The position numbers were made by a program, and so were the translations under genes. A stretch of 64,000 nucleotides of DNA, taken from Parcubacteria group bacterium GW2011_GWA2_42_14 (lineage in GTDB: Bacteria; Patescibacteriota; Minisyncoccia; Sungbacterales; GWA2-42-14). Each line of letters begins with the position of its first letter. Position 1 is the stretch's first letter. The stretch covers positions 29,421 through 93,420 of the forward strand of contig LCCV01000002.1 in the NCBI GenBank assembly GCA_000998135.1, given 5' to 3'. A model generated the notes under the pieces. That model ran no database searches. It saw only the letters and a program-made list of their open reading frames with translations, and was not told where the DNA came from. Of the stretch, positions 5,535-60,665 are shown piece by piece.

Positions 5535-6062
5535 TTAAGAATTTGTTGTGTTATCATCCTTTGGTGTGCAGAGTGTTGGAGTAAAATATTTCTCCACCAT
5601 CACGTCAAATTTATCCAAAAGTTCTTGGAAAATACAGAACTGTTCTAAATTTTTTATCGGCTCCATTTCGCCAAAAGGATGTTTAGAAAATCTAAAATAA
5701 GGTTTTTCTTTGCAGCTTACAACCGCTATAATAACTTCCTGCCAACTATTTTTAAGCAACCAAAGCATTTTATAGTCATTATCATGCCATTTGGAATCCC
5801 ATCTAAACTTAACTTCAACCAAATAAGGACTGCCGGTTTTATCAATAACAAAGAAGTCGGGAATAGACCTTATTTTTTCACCAACTTCACTATTGCGCTT
5901 AAAAGATTCCTGAATACGAGCAAGACCCGGAAGTATTGCTTCATATCCAATTCTAAATACTTCATTTCCGGATTCTTTCAACAAATCATAAACCAAAGAT
6001 TCGGCCATACGGCCCTTTAAACTTGTTTCACGCCATTCTTGTTTTTTAGGTTGAATATCCAT
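5535..6062 (-). CDS. Hypothetical protein with a PD-(D/E)xK nuclease-fold motif (YraN/UPF0102-like).
   Basis: IPDFFVIDKTGSPYLVEVKFR contains PD...EVK spaced as in restriction-endonuclease-fold proteins. There is no other recognisable domain. Its start codon and first 9 codons lie inside repeat module R1, which is duplicated at 6554-6592. Confidence 0.4.
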   Translation of the reverse strand: MDIQPKKQEWRETSLKGRMAESLVYDLLKESGNEVFRIGYEAILPGLARIQESFKRNSEVGEKIRSIPDFFVIDKTGSPYLVEVKFRWDSKWHDNDYKMLWLLKNSWQEVIIAVVSCKEKPYFRFSKHPFGEMEPIKNLEQFCIFQELLDKFDVMVEKYFTPTLCTPKDDNTTNS

Positions 6063-6139
6063 AAATTTGTTTTATAACATACCAACATTCTCAAGTTTGT
6101 AAGGATGTTGTAAATATGTTGTTATGCTATATGCGACTA

Positions 6140-6424
6140 TTAGATGCGCTGGAATGATTTCAAAAAACTAACAAACGTTTTGCCGTACGGAGACAGAGTA
6201 TGCTCCACAAATTTACCACGATATTTTTTGTTGATAAGCCCCGCTTGATAAAGGCGCCTGGTATGTTCGCCTAAGGTTTTCTCATTTGCTCCGAGTGCCT
6301 CAACAATATCCTCAAGGGTTATACCTTCACTCCCCGCAATCAAAAGCAATATCTCAATGCGGTAATGATTCGACATTCCCTTAAGATGCCGCTCCATTTG
6401 TTTTGCCGTCTTCATTTTCATCAT
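6140..6424 (-). CDS. ArsR/SmtB-like winged-HTH transcriptional regulator (small, about 95 aa).
   Basis: HYRIEILLLIAG...LEDIVEALGANEKTLGEHTRRLYQAGLI is a classic HTH_20 layout. The ORF is open to 6559, but that N-terminal extension overlaps a palindromic repeat. The start is more likely the internal MMKMK at about 6424. It is a paralog of 33158..33427. Confidence 0.6.
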   Translation of the reverse strand: MMKMKTAKQMERHLKGMSNHYRIEILLLIAGSEGITLEDIVEALGANEKTLGEHTRRLYQAGLINKKYRGKFVEHTLSPYGKTFVSFLKSFQRI

Positions 6425-6598
6425 ATTTGTATTACACAACATCCTTATATTCTCAAGTTTGTAAGGATGTTGTGGATGTGTTGTAATATTGTATGCTACT
6501 ATCTTAAATTTGTTAGTGTATTGTTTTGATTTTGTTGCGCCAACCCGGTCCCGCTTCATTCTTGTTTTTTAGCTTGAGTATCCATAAATTTATTTAAT

Positions 6599-9292: not shown

Positions 9293-9498
9293 AATTTCAA
9301 TAGATTATCATATTATATAATAAATAGCAAGTTTTTGACTAGAAACTGTTAAATAATTGCCAAAAAGTTATTTCCTGAGCCCGTCGAAGGATAACTTTTT
9401 AGCTTATTAAGGTAAACCCTTCGACTCGCTTCGCTCGCTCAGGGAATAATTCAAAAGGCTCGACTATTACTAATATCTGTTGTATTCTAAAAAAATCT

Positions 9499-10587
9499 AT
9501 GAAAAAAGAAATAAAAATAGAACCCAATATTTGTAACGTCTGCCAAGAACCCAGGTTACAATATGCTTTCTCCGCCCACGATTATATCACGGACGAAAAT
9601 TTTGAGTTATGGCTATGTCCCGATTGCCAAGCCATGGCAACCATGCCGCGATTAAATGACGAGGAACTGCAAAAATATTATCAAGGCGTATATTATGGCA
9701 GAAGAAAATCATTCGTTGACCAATTTATTAATAACGAAAGGGTTTGGACCATTAAAAAACTTTACAAAACTTATCTCAAAAATTACTCTTTCGGTCATTC
9801 TGCCGCCAGAGGCGAGCCTCGCCTTCGGCGGGAGCGAGGCGAAGAATCTCATGATACTCTATCAAGCGATAAACCTGAGATCCTTCACTTCGTTCAGGAC
9901 GACAATATGTCGATTTTAGATATCGGCTGCGGGAACGGTTTATTTCTAAATGGCCTTAAAAAAATAGGATGGAAAATTGCCGGAACAGAACTCGCGCCGG
10001 AAAGCCATGTGCATCCTGATATATCGCCATTCGTCTGCAACAAGCCGGTTAACGAATGTACTTTTACCGGAGAATCATTTGACATCATTACCATGTGGCA
10101 TACATTGGAACATTTCATAAATCCGTCTCTGTATCTTCGTGATGCTAACAGAATTTTAAAAAGAAGCGGAGTTTTAATTATTGAAGTTCCCAACTTCAAA
10201 TCATGGCAATTTTTGATAACAGGCAAACACTGGTTTCCACTGGAAATTCCCCGACACCGCACACATTTTTCTCCCCAAGCCATTAAAATAATTTTGGAAA
10301 AAACCGAATTTCAGATAGTGCGGATATCCTACGGAAACTTTTTTTATGATGTTTTTGGGTTCACGCAAAGCATATTAAACTCCTTGTGCCGGCAAAAAAA
10401 TATCCTTTTTAATATCTTAAACGGAAAACTTTCTGCTTCTATCAACGGAGTACGAAGCGTATTTGATGTTTTTATAACAGTAGTACTCACTCCCCCGCTT
10501 TCAATTATCGGCATAATATTGTTTTTTATAGAAATCGCGACAAAACACGGAGGAACTATGCGGATTTATTCCAAAAAAACATCATAG
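9499..10587 (+). CDS. Class I SAM methyltransferase with N-terminal Zn-ribbon. Carries an in-frame repeat-derived insert.
   Basis: CxxC...CxxC N-terminus and motif I ILDIGCGNGLF. Nucleotides about 9797-9910 (peptide GHSAARGEPRLRRERGEESHDTLSSDKPEILHFVQDD) match repeat families found elsewhere in the window. Confidence 0.7.
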   Translation: MKKEIKIEPNICNVCQEPRLQYAFSAHDYITDENFELWLCPDCQAMATMPRLNDEELQKYYQGVYYGRRKSFVDQFINNERVWTIKKLYKTYLKNYSFGHSAARGEPRLRRERGEESHDTLSSDKPEILHFVQDDNMSILDIGCGNGLFLNGLKKIGWKIAGTELAPESHVHPDISPFVCNKPVNECTFTGESFDIITMWHTLEHFINPSLYLRDANRILKRSGVLIIEVPNFKSWQFLITGKHWFPLEIPRHRTHFSPQAIKIILEKTEFQIVRISYGNFFYDVFGFTQSILNSLCRQKNILFNILNGKLSASINGVRSVFDVFITVVLTPPLSIIGIILFFIEIATKHGGTMRIYSKKTS

Positions 10588-10640
10588 CAACACCGAGTGT
10601 TGCTAAACCCATTAAGCAACACTCAGTGTTGCTTACGGCT
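10588..10640. terminator. Two tandem perfect hairpins between convergent genes (candidate bidirectional terminator).
   Basis: agcaacaccgagtgttgct and agcaacactcagtgttgct each form 7-8 bp stems. There are no strong T-tracts. The same caacaccgagtg palindrome recurs inside CDS 35352..39356. Confidence 0.35.
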
Positions 10641-12221
10641 AATTAAAAATTTTATTTTAGAAAATACAAAAACTACTCCGGTAGCTACAAAAATGAAATA
10701 AAACGGCGCAAAAGGAACACGATAACGGGCGTTTAGGGCCGCTGAAACAGGCAAGGAAACCAAAACCGTTAAAAATATCAAAGCGATGAGAAAATAAGCC
10801 ATCGCTTTTTGGTTATAAACGCCGTTTCTAACTAAAACCCAAGCTCCCAAAACCGATAAAACCCAAAAAACCAACCAAACAACGCGCATGGCATAAGGTA
10901 TAAGATACTGCCCCTTAAGATACGGCAACATATCGCGCCAGGCCGATGGCCCTTTTTGGAGTAAAAGCAAAGATAGCGGTATTGGAGGGCGCTTGGCATC
11001 GGGCAATAAACGGGAATGATTCAAAATATAAAGCAAATCATCCTGTGTAAATAACGTCTGAACCGAATTCAATTGCACCAAAATAGTTTCTTTGGGATGC
11101 TCTTTTAATATTTCAATCGTGCGCTCTTTTAAAAGCGGAATAAATTTAACATCAAATAATTCATGCTCATCGGCGCGGGAAATATACCCTTCGTTTTTTA
11201 ACTGATTCATCAGGTTCTCCAAACTTTGAATATATGACTTCTGGCTGACTGTTGCATTAACCATGGCCGCCATTCTTGTATACATATTATACCAACCGAG
11301 CGTGGAAAGAGTAAATTGTCCGGAGACCTGTTTATTCCGGTACATCCAAGGAACGACCAAGGCCAAAGCTATAAATAAAAAACAAAGTGCCGGTGCCATC
11401 ATTCTGCCGCCAGAGGCGAGCCTCGCTTTCAGCGGGAGCAATGCTAAAAATCCGGCGTCCGTTGTCGCCCTGAACGCAATGAAGGGTCTAAATAATAAAT
11501 TAAAGACCCTTCGGGCTAAACCCTCAGGATGACGTACCGCGCCAGTTCCTTCGCTAACGCCCAAGATGACGCCGTTTCGACGAACCGAAGATATTACCAA
11601 AAAAATAAAAATAAGCGGAAACGCGTAATAAAAAAACGGGCGAGTTAAGGCGGCGAATCCCGACAAAAAACCTATAACGGCGGCTTTTTTAAAACTAGGC
11701 GTTTCAATATATTGATATATTAAAACAACAGCCAGGACCGTAATAAAAACAAAAATACTTTCGGTATTAAGGGTAAGAGTATGAACCGCTATGTGATAGT
11801 CAAAAACTGTTAAAAATCCCGCTATAGCAGATGTTTTTAAATTATCCGTAATCCTTAAGCATAACCAAAATATAAAAACCGGAACAAATGAATTTAAAAC
11901 GGCCTCAAACAAAGAAGCGGGCCAATAAACGCCGAATAAATAATAAAATAATGAAAGAAAAACAGGATAGCCGGGAGTGCGAAGGGTATGCGGTTCAAAA
12001 GGCAACGAATCGCTTAAAGAAAAACCGTTTCCAAGCGATAAATTCCTGGCCAAGGCCATATAATTATTGGCGTCAATCCAGGCCAAACCGCTCCATTCGC
12101 CTAAACGGAAAAATAAAATACCAAATATAAAAAGACGGACGCCAAGCGCCGTTATAAAAATGACCAGTGCGAGACGAAAATATTTTTTGTCAGAAAAAAG
12201 ATATGAAAAAAGTCCGTTCAC
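10623..12221 (-). CDS. Polytopic membrane glycosyltransferase, ArnT/PMT-like (GT39/GT83 family). Carries an in-frame repeat insert.
   Basis: N-terminal multi-TM region with GYPVFLSLFYYLFG-type loop typical of the lipid-carrier-dependent GT-C fold. Residues GTGAVRHPEGLARRV...LASGG are encoded by repeat sequence 11395-11560. Confidence 0.6.
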   Translation of the reverse strand: MNGLFSYLFSDKKYFRLALVIFITALGVRLFIFGILFFRLGEWSGLAWIDANNYMALARNLSLGNGFSLSDSLPFEPHTLRTPGYPVFLSLFYYLFGVYWPASLFEAVLNSFVPVFIFWLCLRITDNLKTSAIAGFLTVFDYHIAVHTLTLNTESIFVFITVLAVVLIYQYIETPSFKKAAVIGFLSGFAALTRPFFYYAFPLIFIFLVISSVRRNGVILGVSEGTGAVRHPEGLARRVFNLLFRPFIAFRATTDAGFLALLPLKARLASGGRMMAPALCFLFIALALVVPWMYRNKQVSGQFTLSTLGWYNMYTRMAAMVNATVSQKSYIQSLENLMNQLKNEGYISRADEHELFDVKFIPLLKERTIEILKEHPKETILVQLNSVQTLFTQDDLLYILNHSRLLPDAKRPPIPLSLLLLQKGPSAWRDMLPYLKGQYLIPYAMRVVWLVFWVLSVLGAWVLVRNGVYNQKAMAYFLIALIFLTVLVSLPVSAALNARYRVPFAPFYFIFVATGVVFVFSKIKFLISRKQH

Positions 12222-12332
12222 TCAAGCCGTTATTGTCCGAGCTTGTCGAGGACTTTACATTTTACATTAATGTTAACTTCTCGACTCGGCTCGAAGAATA
12301 ACCATATTACGCTCGTTTTCGCAGACAAACAG

Positions 12333-16843: not shown

Positions 16844-18331
16844 TTATATCAAGCCGCTGATTTTTTCAAAGATTCTATCAAAATTCCTGACGACATCAAA
16901 AATGGTATTGCCGAAAAGAATGATGAAAACTAAAAATAAAATTTTAAGATTTTTATATTGACCATTTTTAATAAATTTTATAGCTTCCATAATACCTACT
17001 CCGGCAAAAATCGCGAAAAAAGCGTAAGAAGGATAACGATAGCGAGTCTCAACCACAATAAAAACAACCGGCAAAACTACGGCGGCCAGAAACGCTAATA
17101 ACCACATCTTGTTTGTGGTGAAAAACGTGTATGGTAAATCCTTCGACTTCGCTTCGCTGCGCTCAGGAAATAATTTATTGCCTGAACCTGTCGAAGGCAT
17201 ACCTTTCTTTGAACTCCAGATTGCTTCTACAATTCCGTAGAAACCGAAGGTAAAAATAATTACCGACCATAAGGAGGAAAGCGACAAAACGACCGCCTGC
17301 CAAGGACTTCCAAAAAGATACGGCCACCAGCCGGTGGGACGCGCAAAACTAAAATACATGGAAATTCTGAAAAAAGTTATTTTTATGAATTCCAGCGGAT
17401 TAAAAAGTATGAAAATGATAGCTTCTTTTGCCGCCAAACGATCCCCGGTAACCATGTCATAATCATTATATTTAGCGGTAAATTGTATGCGCGAATCGTC
17501 AAGTTCTCCGGACGAGCCGGGGTGATTTCCGGATAAAAGGTCGTCCCCAAACGTTAAACTTGTCGGAATAAAAGCGCCATACACCTTGAAATTGCGGATT
17601 GTCCAAGGAGTCATCACCGCCAGAATGACCGCCGTAAAAATCGCCAAACTGATAAACAATTTCTTTTTGTAAAAAAAATAAATAAAGGGCAAAAAAATCA
17701 AAAGCAAAGGAGTTCTCACAAGAACAGACGCGGCAAAAACAAAACCGAGAAGCGCGGCCAATTTAATGCCCGATTTATCAAGTATGCGAAAAAAAATAAA
17801 AATGGATAACAGCATTAAAAAAATAGCGAGGGTTTCGGCAAGAAGCATGGAACTGCCGATTATTAAATCGGGGTAAAAACCGAATATAACAGCCGCAATT
17901 AAAGCGGCGGCACGCACGTTTAAGGTCGGACCTTCCGCGGAAGGTCCGACCTTTCGCATAATCAAAAAAACCAAAAGAACTGACAAAGCGTGAAATATCG
18001 CCTGCAAGAACCAAACTACCTCATAATGATGCCCAAAAATAAAATAAACCCCCACCAGAAAAAATTCATAGCCCGGGCCTACCCTGCCGATAGAATTATC
18101 TTTTTCAAACGGAAGGTCAAAATTTTGGCGATAACCATGACCATTTAATATATTCACGGCAATACGGTCATAAGCTCCGGCATCAACCGAAGGTTCAATC
18201 TGAAAATAAAAAGAATGGGTCAAAGACAGCAAAAAAGAGGCAAATACAATGCCCCAAAGCAACTTTTTCCAATTCGCATTAACAAAATTCAAAGCACAAA
18301 GCACCAAATCCCAAATAAATTCAAACTTCAA
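16844..18331 (-). CDS. Polytopic membrane glycosyltransferase, ArnT/PMT-like (GT39/GT83). Carries an in-frame repeat insert.
   Basis: N-terminal ...DAGAYDRIAVNILNGHGY... loop and many TM helices. Residues MPSTGSGNKLFPERSEAKSKDLPYT are encoded by palindromic repeat 17130-17215. The annotated N-terminus (MKFEFIWDLVL) lies inside the intergenic IR element 18291-18406, so the real start is probably downstream. Confidence 0.6.
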   Translation of the reverse strand: MKFEFIWDLVLCALNFVNANWKKLLWGIVFASFLLSLTHSFYFQIEPSVDAGAYDRIAVNILNGHGYRQNFDLPFEKDNSIGRVGPGYEFFLVGVYFIFGHHYEVVWFLQAIFHALSVLLVFLIMRKVGPSAEGPTLNVRAAALIAAVIFGFYPDLIIGSSMLLAETLAIFLMLLSIFIFFRILDKSGIKLAALLGFVFAASVLVRTPLLLIFLPFIYFFYKKKLFISLAIFTAVILAVMTPWTIRNFKVYGAFIPTSLTFGDDLLSGNHPGSSGELDDSRIQFTAKYNDYDMVTGDRLAAKEAIIFILFNPLEFIKITFFRISMYFSFARPTGWWPYLFGSPWQAVVLSLSSLWSVIIFTFGFYGIVEAIWSSKKGMPSTGSGNKLFPERSEAKSKDLPYTFFTTNKMWLLAFLAAVVLPVVFIVVETRYRYPSYAFFAIFAGVGIMEAIKFIKNGQYKNLKILFLVFIILFGNTIFDVVRNFDRIFEKISGLI

Positions 18332-18406
18332 AATTCAGATATTAAAACTTATGTATTTTAAGCATTTGGATTTTGATATTATTTGGGATTTGGGATTTTA
18401 AAATTG
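18291..18406. repeat. Intergenic inverted-repeat element (family ccaaatcccaaat...ttcaaaattcaa / ttgRattttgRtattatttgggatttg), copy 1 of 4.
   Basis: Other copies are at 22511-22666, 50333-50457 and 59438-59556. Each lies between the stop of one minus-strand gene and the start of the next. Confidence 0.6.
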
Positions 18407-18413
18407 TGATTTA

Positions 18414-19943: not shown

Positions 19944-20029
19944 TTGTCATCCTGAACGAAGTGAAGGATCTATATATCTTTTGAGATTCTTCGCCTAGCT
20001 CAGAATGACAGCACGGCTGTCAATTTTAG
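19924..20029. mobile_element. About 105-bp MITE-like palindromic element with terminal inverted repeats (ctaaaattgacaa ... ttgtcaattttag).
   Basis: TIRs plus an internal inverted pair gtcatcctgaacgaagtgaaggatc / gattcttcgcctagctcagaatgac. The core recurs inverted inside CDS at 9877-9905 and partially at 52030-52075. Confidence 0.55.
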
Positions 20030-22481: not shown

Positions 22482-22662
22482 TTAATAAATCCTTAATCCA
22501 ATTCCAAAAAACCCCAAATTCAAAATCCCAAATTCCAAATATCAAAATTCAAATAATAAATACAAAATATATTACTGTTTGAATTTTGAAATTTTCCGCC
22601 GAAGGCGGATCCGCCTCTGGCGGAGAATTTATTTGGGATTTGGTGCTTTGGATTTTGAATTT

Positions 22663-23652: not shown

Positions 23653-23714
23653 AATTAACTATTTTACCATTTTAATTTAAAAAATCAATATCTTAAAGTA
23701 CGACTTCCAAAATA

Positions 23715-24869
23715 CTATGGAAGTCGGACTTCCGTAGTTATAGACGATATTATTTTTTTTGCCCTCTTTTCCCAAGTATAATTTTCAACATCACGTTTTG
23801 CTTCTTCAACTAATAATTTGGCAGTGCTCGGATTTTCAAAAATATACGCAATTCCGTCAGCCAGCGCTCTTTCATCATCCGGTTGAACGAGCCATGAGTT
23901 TTTTTTATGAACTAACACCTCTTGAATGGCGCTCGTTCCCGAAGCCACTATCGGCCTGCCTGATGCCATATACTCAAAAAGCTTCAGGGGAGAGGTAAAA
24001 TAATTGGAATGCTCGTCTTTAGCGGTCCCGGTAATAACAAGACAATCAGCCGCTTTAAGATAAAACGGAATCTCCGAATATTTTTTCTGGCCGATTAATA
24101 TTATGTTTTCAGGAAGTTTCTCTTTAAGAAGCGTGGAATCTTCGGGGGTGCCGCCGCCAACCAGCAAAACTGTTATATCTTTTGGCAAAAGGGCGGCCGC
24201 TTTAATTAATGTATCAATCCCCTTCCAGCTGTAAAAATGCCCCGTATATACCACATAACGTCCTTTAACAGCCAAACCGAGTTTACGGCGAGCATCTTCT
24301 TTGGTTATCGAAAGAGCAAAATCCTCAATGGAAACTCCATCCGGAGCCCAAACAACTTTGTCTTTCATGCCTTTTATGGACTGATATATTTCTTTAGCCG
24401 AGCGGTTGATGGCTACGGCCAATTTCAGCCGCGGAAAAAATCTCTGATATTTCTTTTCAGCAAGAAAATGAAACTCGCTAATCAGTTTTTTCTTACAGAA
24501 AATGAAAAACCAAAAAAGTATGGAGTCATGGCGAAAATATAAAAAATCATGACTATGGGTCATACTATGAAACGCCGCGGACAATGAAAAAGTAACGCTA
24601 ATCAGCCAATAAGGAATAGGGCCTAAAAAATAAAGGTAAGGAATTAAATCCAAACAAGCAAGTTTTTTAAGCTTAAAAACCCTTTCAACTTTATAATAAT
24701 CAAAAGGGTCCTCATTCATTGCTTCTGTTTTTCGCCGCGGAATAACAAGTTCAAGTTCCACGCCGTTTTTGGCCATGGCCTCGCAGGTTTTCATAATCTG
24801 CAAACCGTTGGCCCTGTCGGTGGGTATTCTTTCGTTAGCTATATATAATAATTTTATTTTTTCGCGCAT
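23715..24869 (-). CDS. GT4 family (GT-B, retaining) glycosyltransferase.
   Basis: C-terminal Glycos_transf_1 pattern (GGGTPEDST...ADCLVITG...FEYMASGRPIVAS). Confidence 0.7.
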   Translation of the reverse strand: MREKIKLLYIANERIPTDRANGLQIMKTCEAMAKNGVELELVIPRRKTEAMNEDPFDYYKVERVFKLKKLACLDLIPYLYFLGPIPYWLISVTFSLSAAFHSMTHSHDFLYFRHDSILFWFFIFCKKKLISEFHFLAEKKYQRFFPRLKLAVAINRSAKEIYQSIKGMKDKVVWAPDGVSIEDFALSITKEDARRKLGLAVKGRYVVYTGHFYSWKGIDTLIKAAALLPKDITVLLVGGGTPEDSTLLKEKLPENIILIGQKKYSEIPFYLKAADCLVITGTAKDEHSNYFTSPLKLFEYMASGRPIVASGTSAIQEVLVHKKNSWLVQPDDERALADGIAYIFENPSTAKLLVEEAKRDVENYTWEKRAKKIISSITTEVRLP

Positions 24870-35351: not shown

Positions 35352-38300
35352 CTACGGCAATAAATCCGGCGGAATGGTTTTTATGACATTGGAATCATCA
35401 TAAAAGTCAATGCCGCCGTTGTTTATGAGGTGATGCGAACTATCCACAGCCATGCCGACGCCGTTGTCGCGAAAAATCAAATTGCTTATAGTAGTGGTTG
35501 CGCTGCCGGAAATAACCAAAGCGTAATATTGCTTGCCGGGCAATAAATTGTCCCGAAAAATCGTATCCGTAACGGTGCTTGAGGCATTACTCGCGAGCCA
35601 AACGCCCTTAAACTTATTTTTTTCAATCACGGAATTTTTAATGGTAAGCGGCTCATTGCCGCCGGCCTTGATTCCGGCAAGATTATACCGCTCTTCTTCT
35701 CCTCCGGCGTATCTTATAACGGCGCCGTCAAAAACCGCTTCTCCAGAACCCCAAAAATCAATGCCCCGCCAATGCCCCAAAATCGGCTGGCTGGAAGTGG
35801 CGTCATTATTGGTATCCCCGCCGTATTCATCATCATAAAATGATGTAAAAACAACCGGCTCCTCGAGGGTGCCATTAGCCGAAAAAGCTCCGGCAATGGT
35901 CAAACCGGTATTAGGCATAAATTTAAACACCGCGCCCTTTTCCGCGGAAATATTTCCCGCAAACGTGTAATTTCCCCAATCAATAATATAAGGCAAGTCC
36001 TTGGCAAAAACATGATCATTGCCCGCGTTATTCCTGATAATAATTCCTTTAACGCCGGGGCTGTCGGAAATAACAGTGTTTCCTCCGAATAACGGCGGAG
36101 AACTTTCCGCAATGATAACATTTCCATTTTTATCAAAAGTGTTGTTGCGAACTTCTCCGCCATGTATGTCGGAGGAAAAAATTCCTCCGCCATTTTCCAA
36201 AAATGTATTATTTAAAACTTTTGGAGCAGAACCGGCTATTATCAATGCCTCAAGAGCGTTTTTATAAAATACGCTATTTTCTATGTTCGCATTGCAGTTT
36301 ATACAAGACAAACCCCTAAGCAAAGAGTGCTCAAGGCGTGAATTTTTAAACGAAAGAGCCGCGCTTGTGATATAAATCATGGCCCTTCTTTTAAACGGCA
36401 AATTATTATCCATATTTCCACCGTATCTGAAAAACGTGTTTAAAAATTCCGAACCGGAGCTTTCCAAATTAAAAGTGAATTGCCTCCAATTGCCTGCTTG
36501 AGGGCATATCGCGGTTGAAGAAGCGTTTAACGGGTCGCAAACGCCATCTTTATTGGTATCTCCGCCGTATTCATCATCATAAATGCCGGTAAAAACAATT
36601 GGCTCTTCGGGCGCGCCTCGCGAAAAGATTTTTCCGTAAACATTAATAATTGCCCAATAATCATTAGGCGGCATAATCTTTATAACCACGCCCGGCTCAA
36701 TATTAAGAACAGCGCCGTCTCTTATAGTTAAACCCGCTCTTCGGATAAGGTAAGGAGAATTTTCTTTGGTCAGAATTCTATCACCAGTCAAATTTCCGTC
36801 AACGGCAATCAAATAATTAACGCTGTTTCTGGCTTTGGGAGTACCATAAACCGGCCCGTCCTCGGCGTTTTTGTTAATATTGACTATTTCCTCTTCAAAA
36901 TAAGTCCCCCAGTTTGCCTGCGTTTCACCCGGAGCGTCCGGGTCAATTCTTTCCATAGAAAATCTTGCTAACAAAATACCTGCGCACCAGCCGGTAGGGC
37001 GCGAGCGATCCCATGGACAAAGTTCCGGGGTTCTATCAATGGTTCGGCTTGGCTCACCACTGGCGGTCGTAGAACCTTTTTCCAGTTTTAAAATCATTCC
37101 GTTGTCATCAAGCCCCGCGCCGAACGAAGCGATAAAATCGGCCTTAATAATTGATACGGCGTTATCATCATCACGCTCAATCAAATAATAACTTTTGGGC
37201 GCGATTTTACCGGAAAGATTGATTATTATTTTTGGCTCGGGCTCGCCGGGCTTAAAAAATTTCAACTGCCAACCGGTTAAATCAATTTCGGCTTCAGAAC
37301 GGCTCTTTAACTCAATCCATTCATCTTCACTGGTGGTTGCCGAATTGCCGGTTCCCGCCCAGGCGATTTCGTTTATAATGACCGGCATTTGATTTATTTC
37401 TAAGATTTTTACAATTTCAGCCGATTCATTTCCGGTTTTATCTTTGGCTTTAGCGCGAAATTCATAAAAAGTGTTTGGGGAAGCAGTAAAAATAAATGAT
37501 GTCGCAAACGGCGCGGTTGACGACGCCGTTGAGGTCGAACCTCCCATGGGAGGTTCGACCTCTATAAATTTCAGAAAATCGTCGCAATCTTGCCACGGCT
37601 GGCTTGTTTTTTGACGATAAGCGCAATTTAGGAAAAAGGACGCAATATCTTCGCTATTGGACTCCAAAAAAATCGTAAGAGTGGTTGTAGCAATAACGCA
37701 ATCAGTTTGAGAAAAACTGTCAGAACATTCCTGAATGTTCAAAGAAATGTCCGGCGGAGTAGTATCGGTCGTTGTAGTAGCAACACCGAGTGCTGCTGAC
37801 GCTTCAGCATCACTCGGTGTTGAAGCTTGAACCGGCGCAACATATTCCCCGCCCGCGCCAGCTATAAAATCACCCAAAGCATAAGGAGGAGGCGGAGGCG
37901 GAGTTGAAGTAGCAACACCGAGTGTTGGCATTGGTAGAAAAACACTCGGTGTTGAAGTGGCTGCAGGAGCCAAATCTAAAGTTTCAGAATCTATGGAGGT
38001 TGAACCTCCATAGATTTGAGGAACGGGCTCAATATCGGAGGTTTCCGAAATGGTTCGACTCGACTCACCATAAAAAGAGCCGAAATTCGCGATTTCGTCA
38101 TCAGCAACACCGAGTGCTGCCGACGCATCGGCATCACTCGGTGTTGACAACTCCGTTGTCGACTCCGTACTCGTAATAATCGCCGCTGTGTAAGAAGTGT
38201 TACTGTCTGAGCTTGCTTGCCCGTCCAAGTTTTCCGCAGAAAAGTTGGTCAGGGTCGAGAACAAACTACTTGTCCAATTCCACGCTTTCTGCCACCACGA

Positions 38301-39356
38301 GCGGTTTTTAAACCATAATTCCTTTGTTTGCTTTTCCTTTTCCACTTCGTCAAAAAAGAGCTTAACCACCCCGGCGCCGTTAATAACCGCCTGTTTTGAC
38401 AGCAAATTCCAGTAGTCGGTGAGGATGAGGTTGTCGTCGTCAGCAATAGAAAACTTGTTTTTGTTGTCTTTAGGATTCAACAAGTAATACCATCCAAAAG
38501 ATACATCCGACATTACAATATGATATTTTTTATCACTCAAAATACGATAACCAAATAATACGGATAACCCATTTGATAACTGTTCTTCTTCATAAAAACT
38601 TACATCTGGTTTAATAAATAAATCTGAAAAAATAGTATCTTTACTAAAAAAATTATTATTTGAATAGTTTGCCGTTGCATCAAAATAACTACTGATATTT
38701 GATAAAACATATGGTTTTTTACCGCTTTCTATAAGCTCGGCAACCGTATTTAAATTTTCCGGAGAAAATTTTCTGGTCCAATCTTCATAAGGACTTGAGT
38801 TTAAAACTTGAGAATGTTCAAACAGGCCAGCATGACCATCATTACGGGTATGTTCAGGCACAGTTGCGTCTTCCAAAAGATGTAATGTATGCCCCAATGA
38901 CTCCAATCCCCTATTTTTATCTACCCAGGCATAATCGTAAATCGCCCTTTCCCATGAATAATCCGAAGGCGATGAAAATAGGTCAAAAATTGAACCATAA
39001 GTTTTGTCGCGAAACACTCCGTCTTCCTGGGCTTGAGCCAAGGTGTTTTGCGACCAGTCTTTTGAGCTTTCCCAGCTCTCGCCAAGTATAGTAAGACCGC
39101 GATTATAAATCGGGTCGTAAAAATGGTGAAGCCATCTTGTCTCTTCGTCTTCATCAATGCTTCCATTCATTAAAATCGCAATCTCTTCGCTATTTAAGGC
39201 CTTTTCCTGATAATTGTGATTAAAAAAACGGCCGATTTCTTTGGTTAAAGCCGGATGAGTGGTTTGATCGTCATAGGCAAAAACAAGAATGGGCAGAAAT
39301 AAAACAAATACTGCCGCCCCAATCGCTGATATTGTGTGGGAATACTTCGATTGCAT
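35352..39356 (-). CDS. Very large (1334 aa) secreted surface protein with a lamin-tail domain, right-handed beta-helix/pectate-lyase-like repeats and Ala/Ser-rich repeated linkers.
   Basis: N-terminal signal peptide. LTD motif VIINEIAWAGTG...DEWIELKS...DLTGWQLK. Repeated NNTF-type beta-helix segments. Three repeats of PSDA[ED]ASAALGVA. Confidence 0.65.
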   Translation of the reverse strand: MQSKYSHTISAIGAAVFVLFLPILVFAYDDQTTHPALTKEIGRFFNHNYQEKALNSEEIAILMNGSIDEDEETRWLHHFYDPIYNRGLTILGESWESSKDWSQNTLAQAQEDGVFRDKTYGSIFDLFSSPSDYSWERAIYDYAWVDKNRGLESLGHTLHLLEDATVPEHTRNDGHAGLFEHSQVLNSSPYEDWTRKFSPENLNTVAELIESGKKPYVLSNISSYFDATANYSNNNFFSKDTIFSDLFIKPDVSFYEEEQLSNGLSVLFGYRILSDKKYHIVMSDVSFGWYYLLNPKDNKNKFSIADDDNLILTDYWNLLSKQAVINGAGVVKLFFDEVEKEKQTKELWFKNRSWWQKAWNWTSSLFSTLTNFSAENLDGQASSDSNTSYTAAIITSTESTTELSTPSDADASAALGVADDEIANFGSFYGESSRTISETSDIEPVPQIYGGSTSIDSETLDLAPAATSTPSVFLPMPTLGVATSTPPPPPPYALGDFIAGAGGEYVAPVQASTPSDAEASAALGVATTTTDTTPPDISLNIQECSDSFSQTDCVIATTTLTIFLESNSEDIASFFLNCAYRQKTSQPWQDCDDFLKFIEVEPPMGGSTSTASSTAPFATSFIFTASPNTFYEFRAKAKDKTGNESAEIVKILEINQMPVIINEIAWAGTGNSATTSEDEWIELKSRSEAEIDLTGWQLKFFKPGEPEPKIIINLSGKIAPKSYYLIERDDDNAVSIIKADFIASFGAGLDDNGMILKLEKGSTTASGEPSRTIDRTPELCPWDRSRPTGWCAGILLARFSMERIDPDAPGETQANWGTYFEEEIVNINKNAEDGPVYGTPKARNSVNYLIAVDGNLTGDRILTKENSPYLIRRAGLTIRDGAVLNIEPGVVIKIMPPNDYWAIINVYGKIFSRGAPEEPIVFTGIYDDEYGGDTNKDGVCDPLNASSTAICPQAGNWRQFTFNLESSGSEFLNTFFRYGGNMDNNLPFKRRAMIYITSAALSFKNSRLEHSLLRGLSCINCNANIENSVFYKNALEALIIAGSAPKVLNNTFLENGGGIFSSDIHGGEVRNNTFDKNGNVIIAESSPPLFGGNTVISDSPGVKGIIIRNNAGNDHVFAKDLPYIIDWGNYTFAGNISAEKGAVFKFMPNTGLTIAGAFSANGTLEEPVVFTSFYDDEYGGDTNNDATSSQPILGHWRGIDFWGSGEAVFDGAVIRYAGGEEERYNLAGIKAGGNEPLTIKNSVIEKNKFKGVWLASNASSTVTDTIFRDNLLPGKQYYALVISGSATTTISNLIFRDNGVGMAVDSSHHLINNGGIDFYDDSNVIKTIPPDLLP

Positions 39357-39976: not shown

Positions 39977-40217
39977 AATATCAAATTATTATAATTGACT
40001 CAATTACTCTAAGTTACTCTGATTAAAACCAAAAGTCAAATGTCTTGTGTCTTGTGTAACTGTTGAATAATTGCCAAAAAGTTACCTCCTGAACTTTTCG
40101 CAAGACAACTTTTTGGCTTTAAATAAGGTAACCCCTCGACTCTGCTCGGGGGGTAAGAGGATTATTAATAACCTCTGTGGATAACTTTCGGTTTATTTTC
40201 GGTATTAAGGTGTTAAT

Positions 40218-43180: not shown

Positions 43181-44041
43181 TTATTTTTTTAGCGCGTCAA
43201 TCTCTGCTGCGACTGCCTTATTATGGGGGTCTAAAGCAAGGACTTTTTGGTAATACTCAAGGGCTTTGGGGAAATTGCCCTGTTCTTTATAAAAACGGGC
43301 GAGGTAGCTTAAAAGGGTTTGGTTGTCGGGGTTGGCGGCGAGACCGGATTCAATTATTTTTATAATTTTGTTGCTTCTCGACTCGCCTGCGGGTTCGCTC
43401 GAAGAATATAAATCGGCAAGGGCTGTATATGGATAAATATCGCCCGGAGCATTCTCTATGGCCTTCTTATAGCTTAATTCGGCCTTAGGATAGTCCTTAA
43501 GATATAAAGCGTATAATCCACCCAGATTAGCAAAAGAGGTGGAATTTTGGGGCCTGATGAGTGAGGCATACTCCCAGGCGTCCCGCGCTCCCAAATAATC
43601 GCCGAAAAATTTCTTAATTACCCCGGCTCTTAACCAATTATCAAGATTATCCGGGCTTTCGGAAACGAATTTGGCAATGTCCAAAAGTTCATTTCTTAGC
43701 TTGGTTTTGACATCTTCAGGATAAGCTAAAACGACGCTTTTATCTTCGTTTACGGTTCCGATTGGGGCGCCATTGTATTGAGGAAGCGTAGGTAATTCTG
43801 TTGGTTTTACAACTTCACCGGACAAGTCACGACCTTCTTTGCGGACAAGGTCGGGACTTGATTGACCGACAAGACCCGGTCTTTTTTCCTCAAGGTCGGG
43901 CCTTAAAACGTCACCGAAAAAATAATAGCCGGAGGCGATAAAGGCCAAAAATAATAAAATAACGAGGTCGCGGAGGAGTAGATTTTTTGTTGAATTGGAC
44001 ATGTTTTTATTAATAGGTATGACTTCGACGAAATCAGGCAA
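43181..44041 (-). CDS. TPR-repeat protein with N-terminal TM anchor.
   Basis: N-terminal hydrophobic helix. C-terminal TPR-like repeats (WEYASLIRPQNSTSFANLGGLYALYLKDYPKAELSYKKAIE...ALEYYQKVLALDPHNKAV). Confidence 0.6.
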   Translation of the reverse strand: MPDFVEVIPINKNMSNSTKNLLLRDLVILLFLAFIASGYYFFGDVLRPDLEEKRPGLVGQSSPDLVRKEGRDLSGEVVKPTELPTLPQYNGAPIGTVNEDKSVVLAYPEDVKTKLRNELLDIAKFVSESPDNLDNWLRAGVIKKFFGDYLGARDAWEYASLIRPQNSTSFANLGGLYALYLKDYPKAELSYKKAIENAPGDIYPYTALADLYSSSEPAGESRSNKIIKIIESGLAANPDNQTLLSYLARFYKEQGNFPKALEYYQKVLALDPHNKAVAAEIDALKK

Positions 44042-44384
44042 TAAAATGATACTCCCTAAGCGAGCCCTGCGAGTCGAAGGGTTTCCTTGAATGTATGCCT
44101 TCGACCCGCTTCGCCAAAGCTTCAGCGAGGCGAGTCAGCGAGGCGAGCAAGCTCGAAGAATAAGCAGAGATTACTTCGTCGGTACGCCTCCTCGCAATGA
44201 CGCCGGAATAGTACCTTATAAAAATTATCATTAATAAAGAGATAAATCAATGGTCGTCATCATATATTGCCTGAACTTGTTGAAGGCATACCTTAATGGT
44301 AAACCCTTCGACTCGGCTCAGGGAATAATATTTATAAACAGACCGTCCGAAAACTATAGAACTTCAAAAAACTCGAACAATAAT

Positions 44385-44460: not shown

Positions 44461-47400
44461 TTAGTAGGAAACAACTTCAGCTGCCATGTTCGTCGCGGGC
44501 AGACCTACCACGCCAAATCCATTGGTCCAGTCCTTGCTGGAAAGCGCAGCGGTAGTCGTAGCGTTTGGAGACCAGATTAAGTCATTATGGGTTTGATCAG
44601 CTATACCCGCAGTTGAAGGAGTAGTTGATGCCTGACCCATAATCGGGTTGGTAGCAGACGGTGTTCCGGGTATCAATCCAGGATATGCTCCATCACCTTC
44701 AAGTTGTGTTGATACGGATGAGTTGGTGGAAACCGAGGAAACGGTTGCCACAACATCAAAGTATCTGGTTGCGCCCGCGGGAACTTGAATAACATCTGTA
44801 GGTACTCCTAGAACACTTCCTGACTGAGTTACCGGGTCAAAGTAGACGCTAAACTGGTTACCACCGCCATACAAAACGTTATCCTCAGTTCCAGCGCTAA
44901 ACCATTCTTTCTTATTTTGAACCGGAATCGCGGTATTGTTCAACAAACCGGAATTGGCATAAGCCGCGATTGAGAAGAGAATATCGCTATAACCATACAC
45001 ACGCAAATTCTGCACAGTTGCCGAAGTCGTTGACATCACAAAGGTGAATTTAGCCAATCCTATATCGCCGTGGGAATCCGCGGTTACCTTGAACCTCAAC
45101 AAACTGACAGTACCTGCGGCGAGTTTATTCGTCGACAAGGAAACTTTAGCAAATGTCGGGTAGGACTTGAACATCCTTACGCCGTTGGAAGCTGTGCTTG
45201 AAACCGCGGCAGTATCAGCGGTCTTTGTCTGAATGGTAGAACCGGATGATTGCCCAACGCCTTCCGTTCCCCTGCTGCCTCCGTCAAAATCAACTACAAC
45301 CAAAGCTCCTTCAGTTCCAACCTGCGAAGTGCCGATTGCGCTCAAATCGCCTTTTACGGTCAGAGTCTTATCCCCATCTTTGGGAATCACGAAATCGGCC
45401 GTAAGGGTTGAAGTTGAATAATCGGTACCGGTAAACAAACCTTCTCCGACCTTGGTTGAACCGTCCCACAAAGTATATTTCACAATATCCGCGGGAGCGT
45501 TATTGGTCGTGGAAGAAAGTTTCAATGCAAGTTTTTGAAGCGTAATGGCTTCGTTGGTCGCGTGTAAGTTGAGTAACGCCAACGGAACATCCGTAGTGTT
45601 TCCGGCAACTATCGCGTAAGTCGGACTTGAAGCGCTAAGCGATACGGACAATGAGCCACCTGCAACCAAAGTCATTTCATTCTGATCGTCGGTGGAAGCG
45701 AGATGAGTTACGGTTGCCGCTTGCCCTGATGTAACACCAGTCGCGGAAAGAGTACTTGCCGCAATCTGCCATTCTGCCTGATTACTAGCAGTCAAGTTTG
45801 CAGGAATATTGCACTTGATGGCCAAGGTCTTGGTTGTTCCTTTGGGAATAATCAAGTGGCTATCAAGCGTAAAGGTTTTTGCTCCTTCAGTAGCTATATC
45901 AACAACATTGGTGCCGGTATTCAGGGCGGTTGCTCCGTCCCAAACTTGGCAACCAGTCAAATCTGTCGTATCTGCTCCGGTATCATCCGCAAACGTAAAG
46001 CTAAGGGTGGTAAAACGAATATCCTCGCCGGAAGCCGTTGCGTCAAACACCGGCTTGGCAAAGGTAAATCCTTGTATACCCATAACTACGTTTTGCGCGG
46101 GCGGGTCGGAAGACAAAGTAACAGTAACAACCGCGCTTTTTACAGTCATAGTATTTCCGGTAACTTGTCCAGCTGGAGTCGGGGTAACCGCTGTTCCGGT
46201 AACGGCACCGGTTCCGTTCCTCCAATCCGTTCCCGGAGTGGTGGAAGCGATAATAGTGTCATTATTTTCAAAACCGGAAGTCGCGGCTAATTTGCCCTTT
46301 AAGGTATAAAGGCCTTTTCCAATGGGGAAAGTAATGGAATCGGTAAAGGTTACATATCCATGAGCAACTAAGCTGTTTACGGTATTTCCCGCTTGTCCGT
46401 CAACAGGACCGGCAACAACCGCTCCTGACGGGCCAACCAATACTATATTGTCAATGTCGTCAACATCAATTTCCGCTCCTCCGTCAGAATCAGAAAGAGT
46501 AAAGCGGAAAGAAGTTTCTGGAATCGTTACCGCCTCTCCCTTTACTTCCACATCAAATCCACCCAAGGGCTGGTCAGCAAGAGTTACAGCAACATTTTGC
46601 GATGCTACCGCTGTTGATTTGGATACAACTATGGAGCCAGCGCCGATATTAATGGCATTGGCATTATAAGCCGGGCTAGCTGAATCAAATCCAGCTGTGC
46701 CAGTATCGGCAGGCAATAAGCCATATCCATACTGGGCTCCGACTACATAAAGGTCGTCATGGCGGTAAATGTCAAAATCAACTGTTCTCGCGGAACCGGA
46801 AACAATATCGCCTTTTACGTAAATTTCAGCGGTATTGCCTTTCAAAACTTTGACTCCAGTTCCAAAAACAGAGGTGTAATATTTTCCATCAGAACTTACG
46901 GTCGTGTCATAAGCAGTTCCGGCAACATAAACCTTGACATTAGCAAGGTCGGCCGTGGCCGCGGAACCGGATTGGTTGAATTTGACTGATTTAATCCAGA
47001 TGTCCTCCCCTGCTCCTGCTGTTCCTTTAATAGAAGAGAACACATAACCGGTTGTTCCAACTTCTTTGGTAATACCGGTTGTTGAAGGATCAAGCGGACC
47101 CCTGATAAGGTCAAATCCACCTACAAGGCCTGATGTTTCGTTCATGGTCTGACCGGTGCCTGCAACCGGAAGTCCGGTAACTGTGGCTGAACCAGCGCTC
47201 ACCGCCACAACTGTCAAGCGGATAACCTGTCCGGAATAACCGGTGGTTGCTCCGCGATTAGCGGCAATAGTCATGGTTTTAGAAGTTCCTGCTTTTACGG
47301 TGAAGGGCTCGGTCAAGACCGCCTGATGAAGGGAATTCAAGGTCTTGGAAAGACCTAATTGAAGTCCGTCTTCACCAAGAATAACGATTCCGGAAAGAGC

Positions 47401-60600: not shown

Positions 60601-60665
60601 ATGCATGAAACATGGAACATGCAACATGGAACATGAAAACTATAAACATGCCACTTGCCGCACGC

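What the first reader, a model, noticed from the sequence alone, without database searches (positions are those of the whole stretch)
9797..9910. In-frame insertion of two palindromic repeat modules inside a methyltransferase CDS (RPE-like selfish DNA)
The MTase ORF stays open through about 110 nt that encode GHSAARGEPRLRRERGEESHDTLSSDKPEILHFVQDD. Those nucleotides consist of module A (ctgccgccagaggcgagcctcgccttcggcgggagc, also at 11398-11436 and in degenerate form at 22590-22625) and module B (agatccttcacttcgttcaggacgac, the inverse of the core of the intergenic MITE at 19948-19975). The same elements therefore exist both intergenically and inside genes without breaking frames. This is reminiscent of Rickettsia palindromic elements.
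Basis: seen in the sequence. Interest (0 to 1): 0.6.

Follow-up and report, generated by a model that had tools for sequence, protein, structure and literature searches.

The report
Nested hairpin repeats inside a methyltransferase gene
A 110-base hairpin-forming repeat, carrying a second 30-base palindrome inside it, sits in frame in a floppy linker of a methyltransferase of a groundwater Parcubacteria (Sungbacteria) bacterium; it belongs to a repeat family found across many bacterial phyla that elsewhere flanks small GIY-YIG nuclease genes, so it is a new example of known kinds of selfish repeat DNA.

Summary
ORF 9499-10587 stays open through the insert, and both modules recur in the window where shuffles predict none. 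The anatomy needs correcting. 9794-9903 is one doublet: two inverted ~27-nt hairpin units (GTCATYCT-GARC..GYGA-AGRATC) separated by a 26-nt spacer, with a 30-nt GC-rich palindrome (module A, 9802-9831) nested at the stem/loop junction of the left unit.

- **Orthologs.** One has nothing at this site (L001). The closest has only a solo right unit (L204).
- **Structure.** AlphaFold puts the insert in a disordered linker before motif I.
- **Neighbouring genes.** The PMT gene holds the same family in three states: empty, simple doublet, and nested with module A at the same junction. A third membrane-protein gene also carries a doublet.
- **Family.** The unit shows compensatory stem changes. Its 25-mer occurs in at least 15 phyla. 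It flanks single-domain GIY-YIG genes on both sides in 7 loci examined. This is the architecture of the Ssn/SRM system (Chenal 2025), although the published SRM search pattern does not match it.

Verdict: an RPE-like in-frame insertion of an SRM-like repeat, a new member of known kinds. How it moves is inferred, not shown.

The parts
9499..10587 (+). Host gene: class I SAM-dependent methyltransferase (N-terminal Cys4 zinc-ribbon-like region, long helix, Rossmann domain)
   Evidence: ORF list. Pfam Methyltransf_23/11 E=1.7e-24. AF2 mean pLDDT 88.5. All family-invariant residues are retained.
9794..9903 (.). The insert: 110-nt doublet of two inverted GTCAT-type hairpin units with a nested palindrome. 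It encodes about residues 100-135.
   Evidence: Sequence. Right unit hit by CM R1 at 9876-9905 (E=4e-5). ssDNA fold -25.3 kcal/mol, z=-3.4. Absent from orthologs.
9794..9801 (+). Left unit, 5' part (GTCATTCT), cut off from its remainder by module A
   Evidence: Read. Compared with the uninterrupted units in A3.
9802..9831 (.). Module A: 30-nt GC-rich palindrome GCCGCCAGAGGCGAGCCTCGCCTTCGGCGG nested at the stem/loop junction (CT^GAGC) of the left unit. It is open in all six frames.
   Evidence: Hairpin -13.8 kcal/mol, z=-2.65.
9832..9850 (+). Left unit, 3' part (GAGCGAGGCGAAGAATCTC)
9851..9876 (.). 26-nt AT-rich spacer (the loop of the doublet)
   Evidence: Typical spacer is ~27-29 nt in PMT orthologs and across phyla.
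9877..9903 (-).
   Evidence: (I12, 97% complementary).
11398..11570 (.). Second in-frame insert, in the PMT_2 glycosyltransferase gene 10623..12221 (-): a degraded outer doublet that has been invaded twice
   Evidence: Orthologs L204-L206 carry the simple doublet and L207 carries none.
11406..11435 (.). Second copy of module A (28/30 identical), at the same junction of a unit
11464..11533 (.). Complete inner doublet inserted into the spacer of the outer doublet
   Evidence: CM hits 11462-11492 (+) and 11501-11535 (-). Absent from the L204-L206 spacers.
17134..17204 (.). Third intragenic doublet (TTATT-type units) in membrane glycosyltransferase-like ORF 16844..18331 (-); peptide ..GSGNKLFPERSEAKSKDLP..
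   Evidence: The homolog alignment shows the loop is extra relative to homologs of 48% identity or less.
9367..9450 (.). Intergenic doublet just upstream of the MTase. It lies within a ~127-nt insertion (about 9342-9468) that is absent from ortholog L001 and is flanked by a GACTA direct repeat.
12229..12302 (.). Intergenic doublet
   Evidence: fold z=-3.9.
19944..20011 (.). Intergenic GTCAT-type doublet, the closest uninterrupted relative of the MTase insert
40126..40157 (-). Intergenic unit; its weak partner arm lies near 40085
   Evidence: (D14).
44015..44087 (.). Intergenic inverted pair of units
44263..44329 (.). Intergenic doublet
   Evidence: fold z=-4.4.
49406..49436 (-). Solo unit just after a stop codon
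52027..52057 (-). Solo GTCAT-type unit just after a stop codon
22590..22626 (.). Module-A-like double mini-hairpin, present as a 37-nt insertion in one of four copies of an AT-rich inverted-repeat element
   Evidence: fold z=-4.0.

Best explanation
The segment 9794-9903 is a non-autonomous hairpin-repeat doublet. It consists of two inverted ~27-nt units, each itself a small hairpin (GTCAT, a 5-bp variable stem, the loop GARC..GYGA, the stem complement, then ATC), separated by a 26-nt spacer. It entered the linker of the methyltransferase gene after the split from the L001 lineage. A separate 30-nt GC-rich palindrome (module A) later inserted at the stem/loop junction of the left unit.

The gene tolerates the insert for three reasons. 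The insert lies in a disordered surface linker. Its net length keeps the reading frame. The units have no stop codon in two of three frames in either orientation, and module A has none in any of the six frames.

The units belong to a repeat family spread across many bacterial phyla. In other genomes this family flanks, on both sides, ~95-aa single-domain GIY-YIG nuclease genes. That is the architecture described for Ssn-related motifs, where the nuclease binds the hairpin as single-stranded DNA and cuts just upstream of it. The most likely way such repeats multiply is single-strand, hairpin-directed cutting and copying by such a nuclease supplied in trans, with selection retaining only in-frame copies in tolerant loops.

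Shown here: the anatomy, the copy census, stem covariation, empty/simple/nested states in orthologs, the disordered location, and the GIY-YIG association in other genomes. Inferred: the mobilising enzyme, the single-strand mechanism, and whether this genome encodes the nuclease.
For: - **Recurrence beyond chance.**
- **Unit family and covariation.** 17 arms align into one family. The 5-bp stem is 89% paired against 71% in shuffles, all five pairs show compensatory changes, and 0/500 shuffles reach the observed score.
- **Census.** The CM search finds about 20 units in 11 clusters. Eight clusters lie in the 12% of the window that is non-coding (p=5e-6) and three lie in CDS.
- **Presence/absence in the MTase.**
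- **PMT gene.** The site is empty in L207. L204-L206 carry a simple 80-nt doublet. The window copy carries the same doublet plus an inner doublet in the spacer plus module A in one arm, at the same junction as in the MTase.
- **Timing of module A.** Its two nested copies are 28/30 identical, whereas the adjoining arm is 13/17 identical. This suggests later, independent insertion at the same junction. Module A is also an insertion in one of four AT-rich elements.
- **Structure.** AF2 gives the insert pLDDT 43-54 with no secondary structure; the rest of the protein is confident.
- **Spread.** 84/133 units have an inverted partner within 150 nt, against 5/106 in the background control.
- **GIY-YIG association.** Unit-first: 4 strong and 1 weaker GIY-YIG genes in 839 kb, against 1 weak in 552 kb of control loci. 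In L004, L009 and L015 the gene is flanked by inverted units on both sides. Protein-first: in 4 of 4 loci chosen by GIY-YIG homology alone (Deltaproteobacteria, Chloroflexota, Nitrospirae, Caldilineales), GTCAT-type units flank the gene. The proteins are single-domain PF01541.
- **Published system.** PMC11893778.
Against: - No GIY-YIG ORF lies in this 64-kb window, and the rest of the genome could not be searched.
- The published degenerate SRM pattern matches none of the window units, nor the cross-phylum consensus.
- An isolated unit is a weak hairpin as naked ssDNA (-1.9 kcal/mol, z=0.2).
- Ssn nucleases have been shown to cut DNA. They have not been shown to transpose it; Chenal et al. only raise the IS-like analogy.
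- No clean target-site duplication could be read at the MTase site, because the linker is too diverged.
- Most intergenic copies in the window are of the TTATT-type subfamily, which lacks the GTCAT flank. Its link to GIY-YIG genes was not tested.
- Gene conversion between copies could mimic 'insertion at the same junction'.
Confidence: 0.7

Rival explanations
1. The repeats are kept for a host function at the DNA level, not purely as selfish DNA. They would act as recognition sites that let an Ssn-type nuclease restrict recombination or transformation around particular genes, as NTS repeats do around surface-protein genes in Neisseria. The intragenic copies would be part of that marking.
For: In PMT orthologs the arms are 78-93% identical, whereas the flanking transmembrane coding sequence is 60-74% identical and the spacer 37-48% at unchanged length. 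This indicates DNA-level constraint or concerted evolution on the arms. Four clusters lie within 3 kb of a surface-glycan gene cluster of epimerases, DegT, MTase and PMT-like transferases. NTS repeats cluster near membrane-protein genes and modulate transformation (PMC11893778).
Against: Only three or four orthologs were compared. Gene conversion from other copies would also keep the arms similar. The window copy of the PMT doublet is degraded and has been invaded. Competence or transformation is not known for this organism, and no nuclease gene was found in the window.
Confidence: 0.2
2. The hairpins act at the RNA level (mRNA stability, translational pausing, termination), and the coding copies are selected for that role.
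For: Doublets fold significantly better than shuffles (z from -3.2 to -4.7 in four of five; -1.9 for 19940-20014). Several lie directly after stop codons.
Against: No doublet is followed by a T-run or is flagged as an intrinsic terminator. No Rfam family matches. Units occur in both orientations relative to transcription. SsnA does not bind RNA (PMC11893778). Orthologs function without the insert.
Confidence: 0.07
3. The elements are REP/REPIN-type repeats mobilised by a RAYT (Y1, IS200/IS605-like) transposase, or classical MITEs derived from a DDE insertion sequence.
For: The architecture of two inverted small palindromes forming a longer hairpin matches REPINs. One intergenic insertion is flanked by a 5-nt direct repeat, GACTA.
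Against: The conserved 5' flank is GTCAT, not GTAG. The gene found between inverted units is a GIY-YIG nuclease in 7 loci. Only one possible target duplication was seen.
Confidence: 0.05
4. The segment is an ancestral linker or domain of the methyltransferase, or an assembly artefact.
For: None beyond the open reading frame.
Against: The segment is absent from all aligned homologs. Its nucleotides recur intergenically. The sequence is identical in independent assemblies. The region is predicted to be disordered.
Confidence: 0.02

Closest known systems
Ssn-related motifs (SRM; NTS/dRS3 of Neisseria) with SsnA GIY-YIG single-strand nucleases (Chenal et al., Nat Commun 2025, PMC11893778)
   Same: Both are oriented hairpin repeats with a GTCAT 5' flank, a stem, a short loop, the stem complement and an ATC 3' flank. 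NTS is CGTCATTCCCGCGMAVGCGGGAATCYRG; the unit here is TGTCATTCTGAGCGAAGCGAAGAATCTC. Both occur in many copies. Both flank a ~94-aa single-domain GIY-YIG gene on both sides. Both are spread across phyla.
   Different: The published degenerate SRM pattern does not match. The stem here is AT-richer, with a tandem G.A step. Inverted doublets with a ~27-nt spacer are the usual form. 3 of 11 clusters lie inside genes, against 2% of NTS copies in N. meningitidis. No nuclease gene lies in the window. cd10448 membership of the associated proteins was not testable.
Rickettsia palindromic elements (RPE; Ogata et al. 2000, as summarised in PMC10969869)
   Same: Both are palindromic repeats of about 100-150 bp inserted in frame in unrelated genes, adding a peptide segment without destroying the protein. 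Copies also occur intergenically.
   Different: The host phylum differs (Parcubacteria/CPR). Sequence relatedness to the RPE families was not tested. The element here is modular: unit doublets with nested insertions. Chenal et al. report more than 300 SRM copies in Rickettsia but do not equate them with RPEs.
REP/BIME and REPIN elements with RAYT transposases
   Same: Both are small imperfect palindromes with covarying stems. Pairs in inverted orientation form a longer hairpin. Both are mostly extragenic. Single-strand hairpin recognition is the presumed mechanism.
   Different: There is no GTAG head. The associated gene is a GIY-YIG nuclease, not a Y1 transposase.
Intragenic MITEs (ERIC/RU elements, Nezha, Correia)
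   Same: Both are short non-autonomous inverted-repeat elements that can create in-frame fusions.
   Different: No DDE-type parent insertion sequence is evident. No consistent target-site duplication was seen. The units are themselves hairpins.

Membership tests
SRM/NTS - Ssn system (PMC11893778) | Oriented hairpin repeat of 20-50 nt with a conserved 5' flank (HGTCWY) and 3' flank (RNCY) | tested here: met
   GTCAT-type units show this layout: GTCAT, then stem ATTCT/ATCCT/GCCCT, loop, stem complement, then ATCT. The TTATT-type units of the window lack the GTCAT flank.
SRM/NTS - Ssn system (PMC11893778) | Match to the published degenerate search sequence HGTCWYN(0-2)YYVSBRHN(0-5)WNVSBRGN(0-2)RNCYNB | tested here: not met
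   There are 0 matches in the window. None of 7 GTCAT-type units matches, nor does the cross-phylum consensus. The NTS control does match.
SRM/NTS - Ssn system (PMC11893778) | Repeats flank a small single-domain GIY-YIG gene on both sides | tested here: met
   Met in other genomes: L004, L009, L015 and L208, L209, L210, L211. Pfam gives PF01541 only, 93-131 aa. No such gene lies in the window, so this is not shown for this genome.
SRM/NTS - Ssn system (PMC11893778) | The associated protein belongs to CDD cd10448 (Ssn clade) | not testable with these tools
   No CDD library and no SsnA sequence were available. There was no PDB relative and no NCBIfam relative above cut-off.
SRM/NTS - Ssn system (PMC11893778) | The nuclease binds the hairpin only as ssDNA and cuts a few nucleotides upstream | not testable with these tools
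   This is a biochemical property.
Rickettsia palindromic elements | In-frame insertion of a ~100-150 bp palindromic repeat into ORFs, at positions compatible with the protein fold | tested here: met
   The 110-nt insert leaves the ORF open. It is absent from orthologs. It lies in a disordered linker. Two further genes carry such inserts.
Rickettsia palindromic elements | Sequence similarity to one of the RPE families; Rickettsia host | not tested
   No RPE consensus sequences were at hand. The host is Candidatus Sungbacteria, so membership in the named families is unlikely.
REP/REPIN - RAYT | Conserved GTAG head and an associated Y1 (RAYT) transposase | tested here: not met
   The head is GTCAT or TTATT. 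The gene found between inverted units is GIY-YIG. A systematic search for Y1 genes was not run.
Classical MITE | Terminal inverted repeats plus a target-site duplication, with a parent IS carrying the same ends | tested here: inconclusive
   Inverted arms are present. One possible 5-nt duplication (GACTA) flanks the intergenic insertion at 9342-9468 relative to L001. None could be read at the coding sites.

The most novel reading that the evidence does not exclude
A single horizontally spreading hairpin/GIY-YIG element family, missed by the published SRM search pattern, has colonised most bacterial phyla, including CPR. Its small hairpin units would be insertion targets as well as cargo: new palindromes land at the stem/loop junction or in the loop of existing hairpins. 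That would indicate a single-strand, hairpin-guided insertion mechanism. Its arms would be held under DNA-level constraint even inside protein-coding genes, so that host proteins carry obligatory repeat-encoded linkers.
Probability: 0.25. Interest if true: 0.75.

Novelty: new member of a known kind. Interest (0 to 1): 0.5.

Why it matters
It extends two known phenomena to the Candidate Phyla Radiation: in-frame 'protein-coding palindromes' (RPE-like) and Ssn-type hairpin repeats. These genomes are small, yet this one carries such repeats inside three of about 51 ORFs taken as gene proxies in 64 kb.

The ortholog series (empty, then simple doublet, then doubly invaded doublet) records stepwise nesting at defined hairpin positions. 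That gives a concrete, testable hint about how these repeats insert.

The family's 25-mer is conserved across at least 15 phyla, and its GIY-YIG partner is 67-75% identical between phyla. If biochemistry confirms the link, this points to a very successful inter-phylum mobile element and a large reservoir of sequence-specific ssDNA nucleases.

For annotation, peptides such as HSERSEES, VILSEAKNL, EILRFAQND and RFFASLRMT in predicted proteins mark these repeats rather than conserved protein motifs.

Tried and rejected
- **Two equal adjacent modules.** Rejected. Module B is the right arm of a doublet whose left arm hosts module A.
- **DNA of P0002 by exact look-up.** Not on record. A near-identical ortholog was later obtained through the neighbouring PMT gene (L204).
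- **Metagenome scan with the MTase alignment.** It was useless for orthologs and was reused as a control set.
- **First module A pattern.** The spacing was wrong and it found nothing. A regex replaced it. Module A was not found in the ~200 other loci.
- **Published SRM regex.** No match.
- **Rfam.** At gathering threshold and at E<=1, nothing relevant; a sub-threshold miRNA hit lies on the 10586-10633 palindrome.
- **Intrinsic-terminator scan.** No doublet was flagged.
- **PDB and NCBIfam for the GIY-YIG protein.** No informative match. No supplementary files of the paper are held.
- **Literature.** Searches for the motif string and for CPR palindromic intragenic repeats found nothing specific. 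One preprint could not be opened.
- **Hammerhead-like reading of CUGA...GAA.** Considered from the sequence and dropped: the core does not fit and Rfam has no match.
- **Naming a Sungbacteria GIY-YIG.** None of the 120 best hits was labelled Sungbacteria.
Full report
**1. The observation**

ORF 9499..10587 (+) encodes a 362-aa class I SAM-dependent methyltransferase and reads straight through 9797-9910 with the quoted peptide.
- The 36-nt module A is exact at 9800-9835 and recurs at 11404-11439 with 2 mismatches.
- The 26-nt module B is exact at 9878-9903 and recurs inverted at 19946-19971 with 1 mismatch.
- Shuffled sequence gave no matches for either.
- A degenerate relative of module A lies at 22590-22626.
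- Two other assemblies of close strains (L002, L003) carry the insert without a single difference. The identical protein is deposited from three MAGs of Candidatus Sungbacteria / Parcubacteria.

**2. Anatomy**

Aligning 17 repeat arms from the window shows one family of ~27-30-nt units. Each unit has a short AT-rich head (GTCAT in one subfamily, TTATT in another), a 4-8 bp stem, a conserved loop GARC-N3-12-GYCGA / GYGA, and the stem complement.

The stem differs between copies but stays complementary: ATTCT/AGAAT, ATCCT/AGGAT, GCCCT/AGGGT, TGCCT/AGGCA, CTTC/GAAG, CCCC/GGGG. It is 89% paired against 71% in shuffles, all five pairs show compensatory changes, and 0/500 shuffles reach the observed score.

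Units usually occur as inverted pairs (doublets) that fold into a longer hairpin as single-stranded DNA; four of five doublets fold at z = -3.2 to -4.7.

Read this way, 9794-9903 is one doublet:
- left unit: 9794-9801 plus 9832-9850
- spacer: 9851-9876 (26 nt)
- right unit: 9877-9903 ('module B')
- nested palindrome: module A, 30 nt, 9802-9831, inserted exactly at the stem/loop junction (CT^GAGC) of the left unit

The whole segment folds at -25.3 kcal/mol, z = -3.4.

**3. Census in the window**

A covariance model of the unit finds about 20 units in 11 clusters.
- Intergenic: 9367-9450, 12229-12302, 19944-20011, 40126-40157, 44015-44087, 44263-44329, and solo units at 49406-49436 and 52027-52057.
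- Inside ORFs: the MTase, the PMT_2 gene (11398-11570) and ORF 16844..18331 (17134-17204).

Eight of 11 clusters lie in the 12% of the window that is non-coding (p = 5e-6). The units therefore strongly prefer intergenic DNA, but 3 of 11 clusters are intragenic. None is followed by a T-run or flagged as an intrinsic terminator. Rfam has no matching family.

**4. Orthologs: insertion, not ancestral sequence**

*Methyltransferase.*
- None of 16 aligned homologs has the segment.
- The syntenic ortholog L001 (66-73% identity) has no trace of it. It also lacks the ~127-nt intergenic insertion at about 9342-9468, which in the window is bracketed by a GACTA direct repeat.
- The closest ortholog (L204, 327 aa) has only a solo right unit (AAAAGATTCTTCGCTGACGCTCAAAATGACGAG) at the same site.
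- AlphaFold2 on a 56-sequence alignment gives a confident model (pLDDT 88.5, pTM 0.85). In it, residues ~101-137 have pLDDT 43-54 and no secondary structure. They lie between helix 72-100 and beta-1, which carries motif I.

*Neighbouring PMT_2 gene.* It shows three states at one site:

| Locus | State |
|---|---|
| L207 | empty |
| L204, L205, L206 | simple 80-nt doublet: GTCATCCTGAGCGCTAGCGAAGGATCT, 27-nt spacer, AGATTCTTCGCTCTGCTCAGAATGAC (peptides VILSASEGS...RFFALLRMT) |
| window | the same doublet, degraded, with a complete inner doublet (11464-11533) in its spacer and module A (11406-11435) in one arm, at the same junction as in the MTase |

*Third gene (16844..18331).* It carries a doublet in a loop that is short in homologs of 48% identity or less, while closer relatives carry related repeat-derived peptides.

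**5. Two inferences from these comparisons**

First, between PMT orthologs the arms are 78-93% identical. The flanking transmembrane coding sequence is 60-74% identical, and the spacer is 37-48% identical at constant length. The arms are therefore held by something acting on DNA: either constraint or gene conversion. The sample is small.

Second, the two nested module A copies are 28/30 identical, whereas the adjoining arm segment is 13/17 identical. Module A is also a 37-nt insertion in one of four copies of an unrelated AT-rich inverted-repeat element. This suggests module A is an independently spreading mini-palindrome that lands in existing hairpins, although short-tract conversion cannot be excluded. 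It is open in all six frames, and the GTCAT unit is open in two of three frames in each orientation. This helps explain why in-frame survivors exist.

**6. Wider family and associated gene**

The hosts include:
- CPR lineages: Saccharibacteria, Parcubacteria, Gracilibacteria
- Acidobacteriota, Nitrospirota, Nitrospinota
- Bacteroidota, Ignavibacteria, Chlorobi
- Chloroflexota, Firmicutes
- Omnitrophota, Gemmatimonadota, Verrucomicrobiota, Armatimonadota, Calditrichota
- Proteobacteria

Of those units, 84/133 have an inverted partner within 150 nt, against 5/106 in the background control. The median distance implies a spacer of ~29 nt.

Evidence for a linked GIY-YIG gene:
- In L004 a unit ends 7 nt before the start codon of a 93-aa ORF, and the inverted unit follows its stop codon.
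- A profile search found 4 strong and 1 weaker GIY-YIG ORFs in the 839 kb of unit-selected loci, against 1 weak in 552 kb of control loci. Pfam gives single-domain PF01541.
- A protein-first test took four homologs chosen only by protein similarity, from Deltaproteobacteria, Chloroflexota, Nitrospirae and Caldilineales. All four genes are flanked by GTCAT-type units, including a further compensatory stem, ATGCT/AGCAT.
- These proteins are 67-75% identical to the Saccharibacteria query across phyla, which suggests horizontal spread.

**7. Comparison with what is known**

*Ssn/SRM.* Chenal et al. 2025 (PMC11893778) described NTS/SRM hairpin repeats (NTS = CGTCATTCCCGCGMAVGCGGGAATCYRG).
- The repeats flank ssnA, a 94-aa single-domain GIY-YIG nuclease.
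- SsnA binds the hairpin only as ssDNA and cuts a few nucleotides upstream.
- The authors note the IS-like NTS-ssnA-NTS layout and the REP/RAYT analogy.
- They report only 2% of NTS copies inside genes, and more than 300 SRM copies in Rickettsia and Wolbachia.

The GTCAT-type unit here has the same layout and the same gene association. However, the published degenerate SRM pattern matches neither the window units nor the cross-phylum consensus. cd10448 membership could not be tested. No GIY-YIG gene lies in the window.

*RPE.* In-frame insertion of palindromic repeats into genes is the hallmark of RPEs (PMC10969869). Sequence relatedness to RPE families was not tested.

**8. Verdict**

It is best filed as a new member of known kinds: an SRM-like hairpin-repeat doublet, with a nested lineage-specific mini-palindrome, inserted in frame RPE-style in a disordered linker of a CPR methyltransferase.

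The mechanism of spread (single-strand, hairpin-directed, by an Ssn-like GIY-YIG nuclease) is the most likely one, but it is inferred. The more novel possibilities need genome-wide data and biochemistry: hairpin-targeted nesting, DNA-level constraint on arms inside genes, and an inter-phylum mobile element missed by the published pattern.

Noticed in passing
window 18284-18412, 22509-22669, 50323-50460, 59431-59561: Four intergenic copies of an AT-rich ~140-nt inverted-repeat element built from ~14-nt periodic AAATCCCAAATTC-like motifs. Only the 22509-22669 copy carries the module-A-like 37-nt insertion.
   Followed up: partly
window 37781-37822, 37913-37954, 38105-38146 (inside ORF 35352..39356) and 10586-10633 (between the convergent MTase and PMT genes): Another palindrome family (CAACACCGAGTG...CACTCGGTGTTG). 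Three copies lie in frame in a 1334-aa protein (peptides STPSDA.ASAALGVA). One intergenic copy looks like a bidirectional terminator with a T-rich tail.
   Followed up: no
window 37531-37562, 17922-17953, 43823-43860, 23696-23731: Further short GC-rich perfect palindromes (GAGGTCGAACCTCC..., AAGGTCGGACCTTC...). Three lie wholly inside ORFs, giving peptides such as EVEPPMGGSTS and KVGPSAEGPTL; the fourth (23696-23731) straddles the 3' end of ORF 23715..24869. This genome tolerates several palindrome families in coding DNA.
   Followed up: no
window 9342-9468 versus L001 590-600: The intergenic doublet upstream of the MTase is part of a ~127-nt insertion absent from the ortholog and bracketed by a 5-nt direct repeat, GACTA (a possible target-site duplication). 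Its left extension, AACTGTTAAATAATTGCCAAAAA, recurs at 40058-40119.
   Followed up: partly
protein P0143 (764 aa): A homolog fuses the methyltransferase domains and the PMT_2 domain in one protein. The adjacent MTase and PMT genes of the window therefore probably work together.
   Followed up: no
window 60712-60851 (-): SAM riboswitch (RF00162, 63.6 bits) upstream of ORF 59554..60627.
   Followed up: no
window 47576-47665, inside ORF 44461..48078: 24-nt and 9-nt tandem repeats (GTTGGCGTTGTTGGTGTTTCTGTG; GTTGGAGTT) in a GC-richer stretch (47-50% GC against ~40% elsewhere).
   Followed up: no
L119 3076-3891: A GIY-YIG domain fused to a YgjP-like metallopeptidase domain near a GTCAT-type unit.
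   Followed up: no
L205 and L206, just after the right arm of the PMT doublet: An extra ~24 nt (..tttaa..aaaatgac..) ends in a partial copy of the arm terminus (AAATGAC). It may be the remnant of a further arm.
   Followed up: no
window 6034-6140 and 6422-6598: Direct repeats of 42 nt (90% identical) and 81 nt (77% identical) at the 5' ends of, and upstream of, the two small ORFs 5535..6062 and 6140..6559. They suggest a duplicated promoter or leader region.
   Followed up: no
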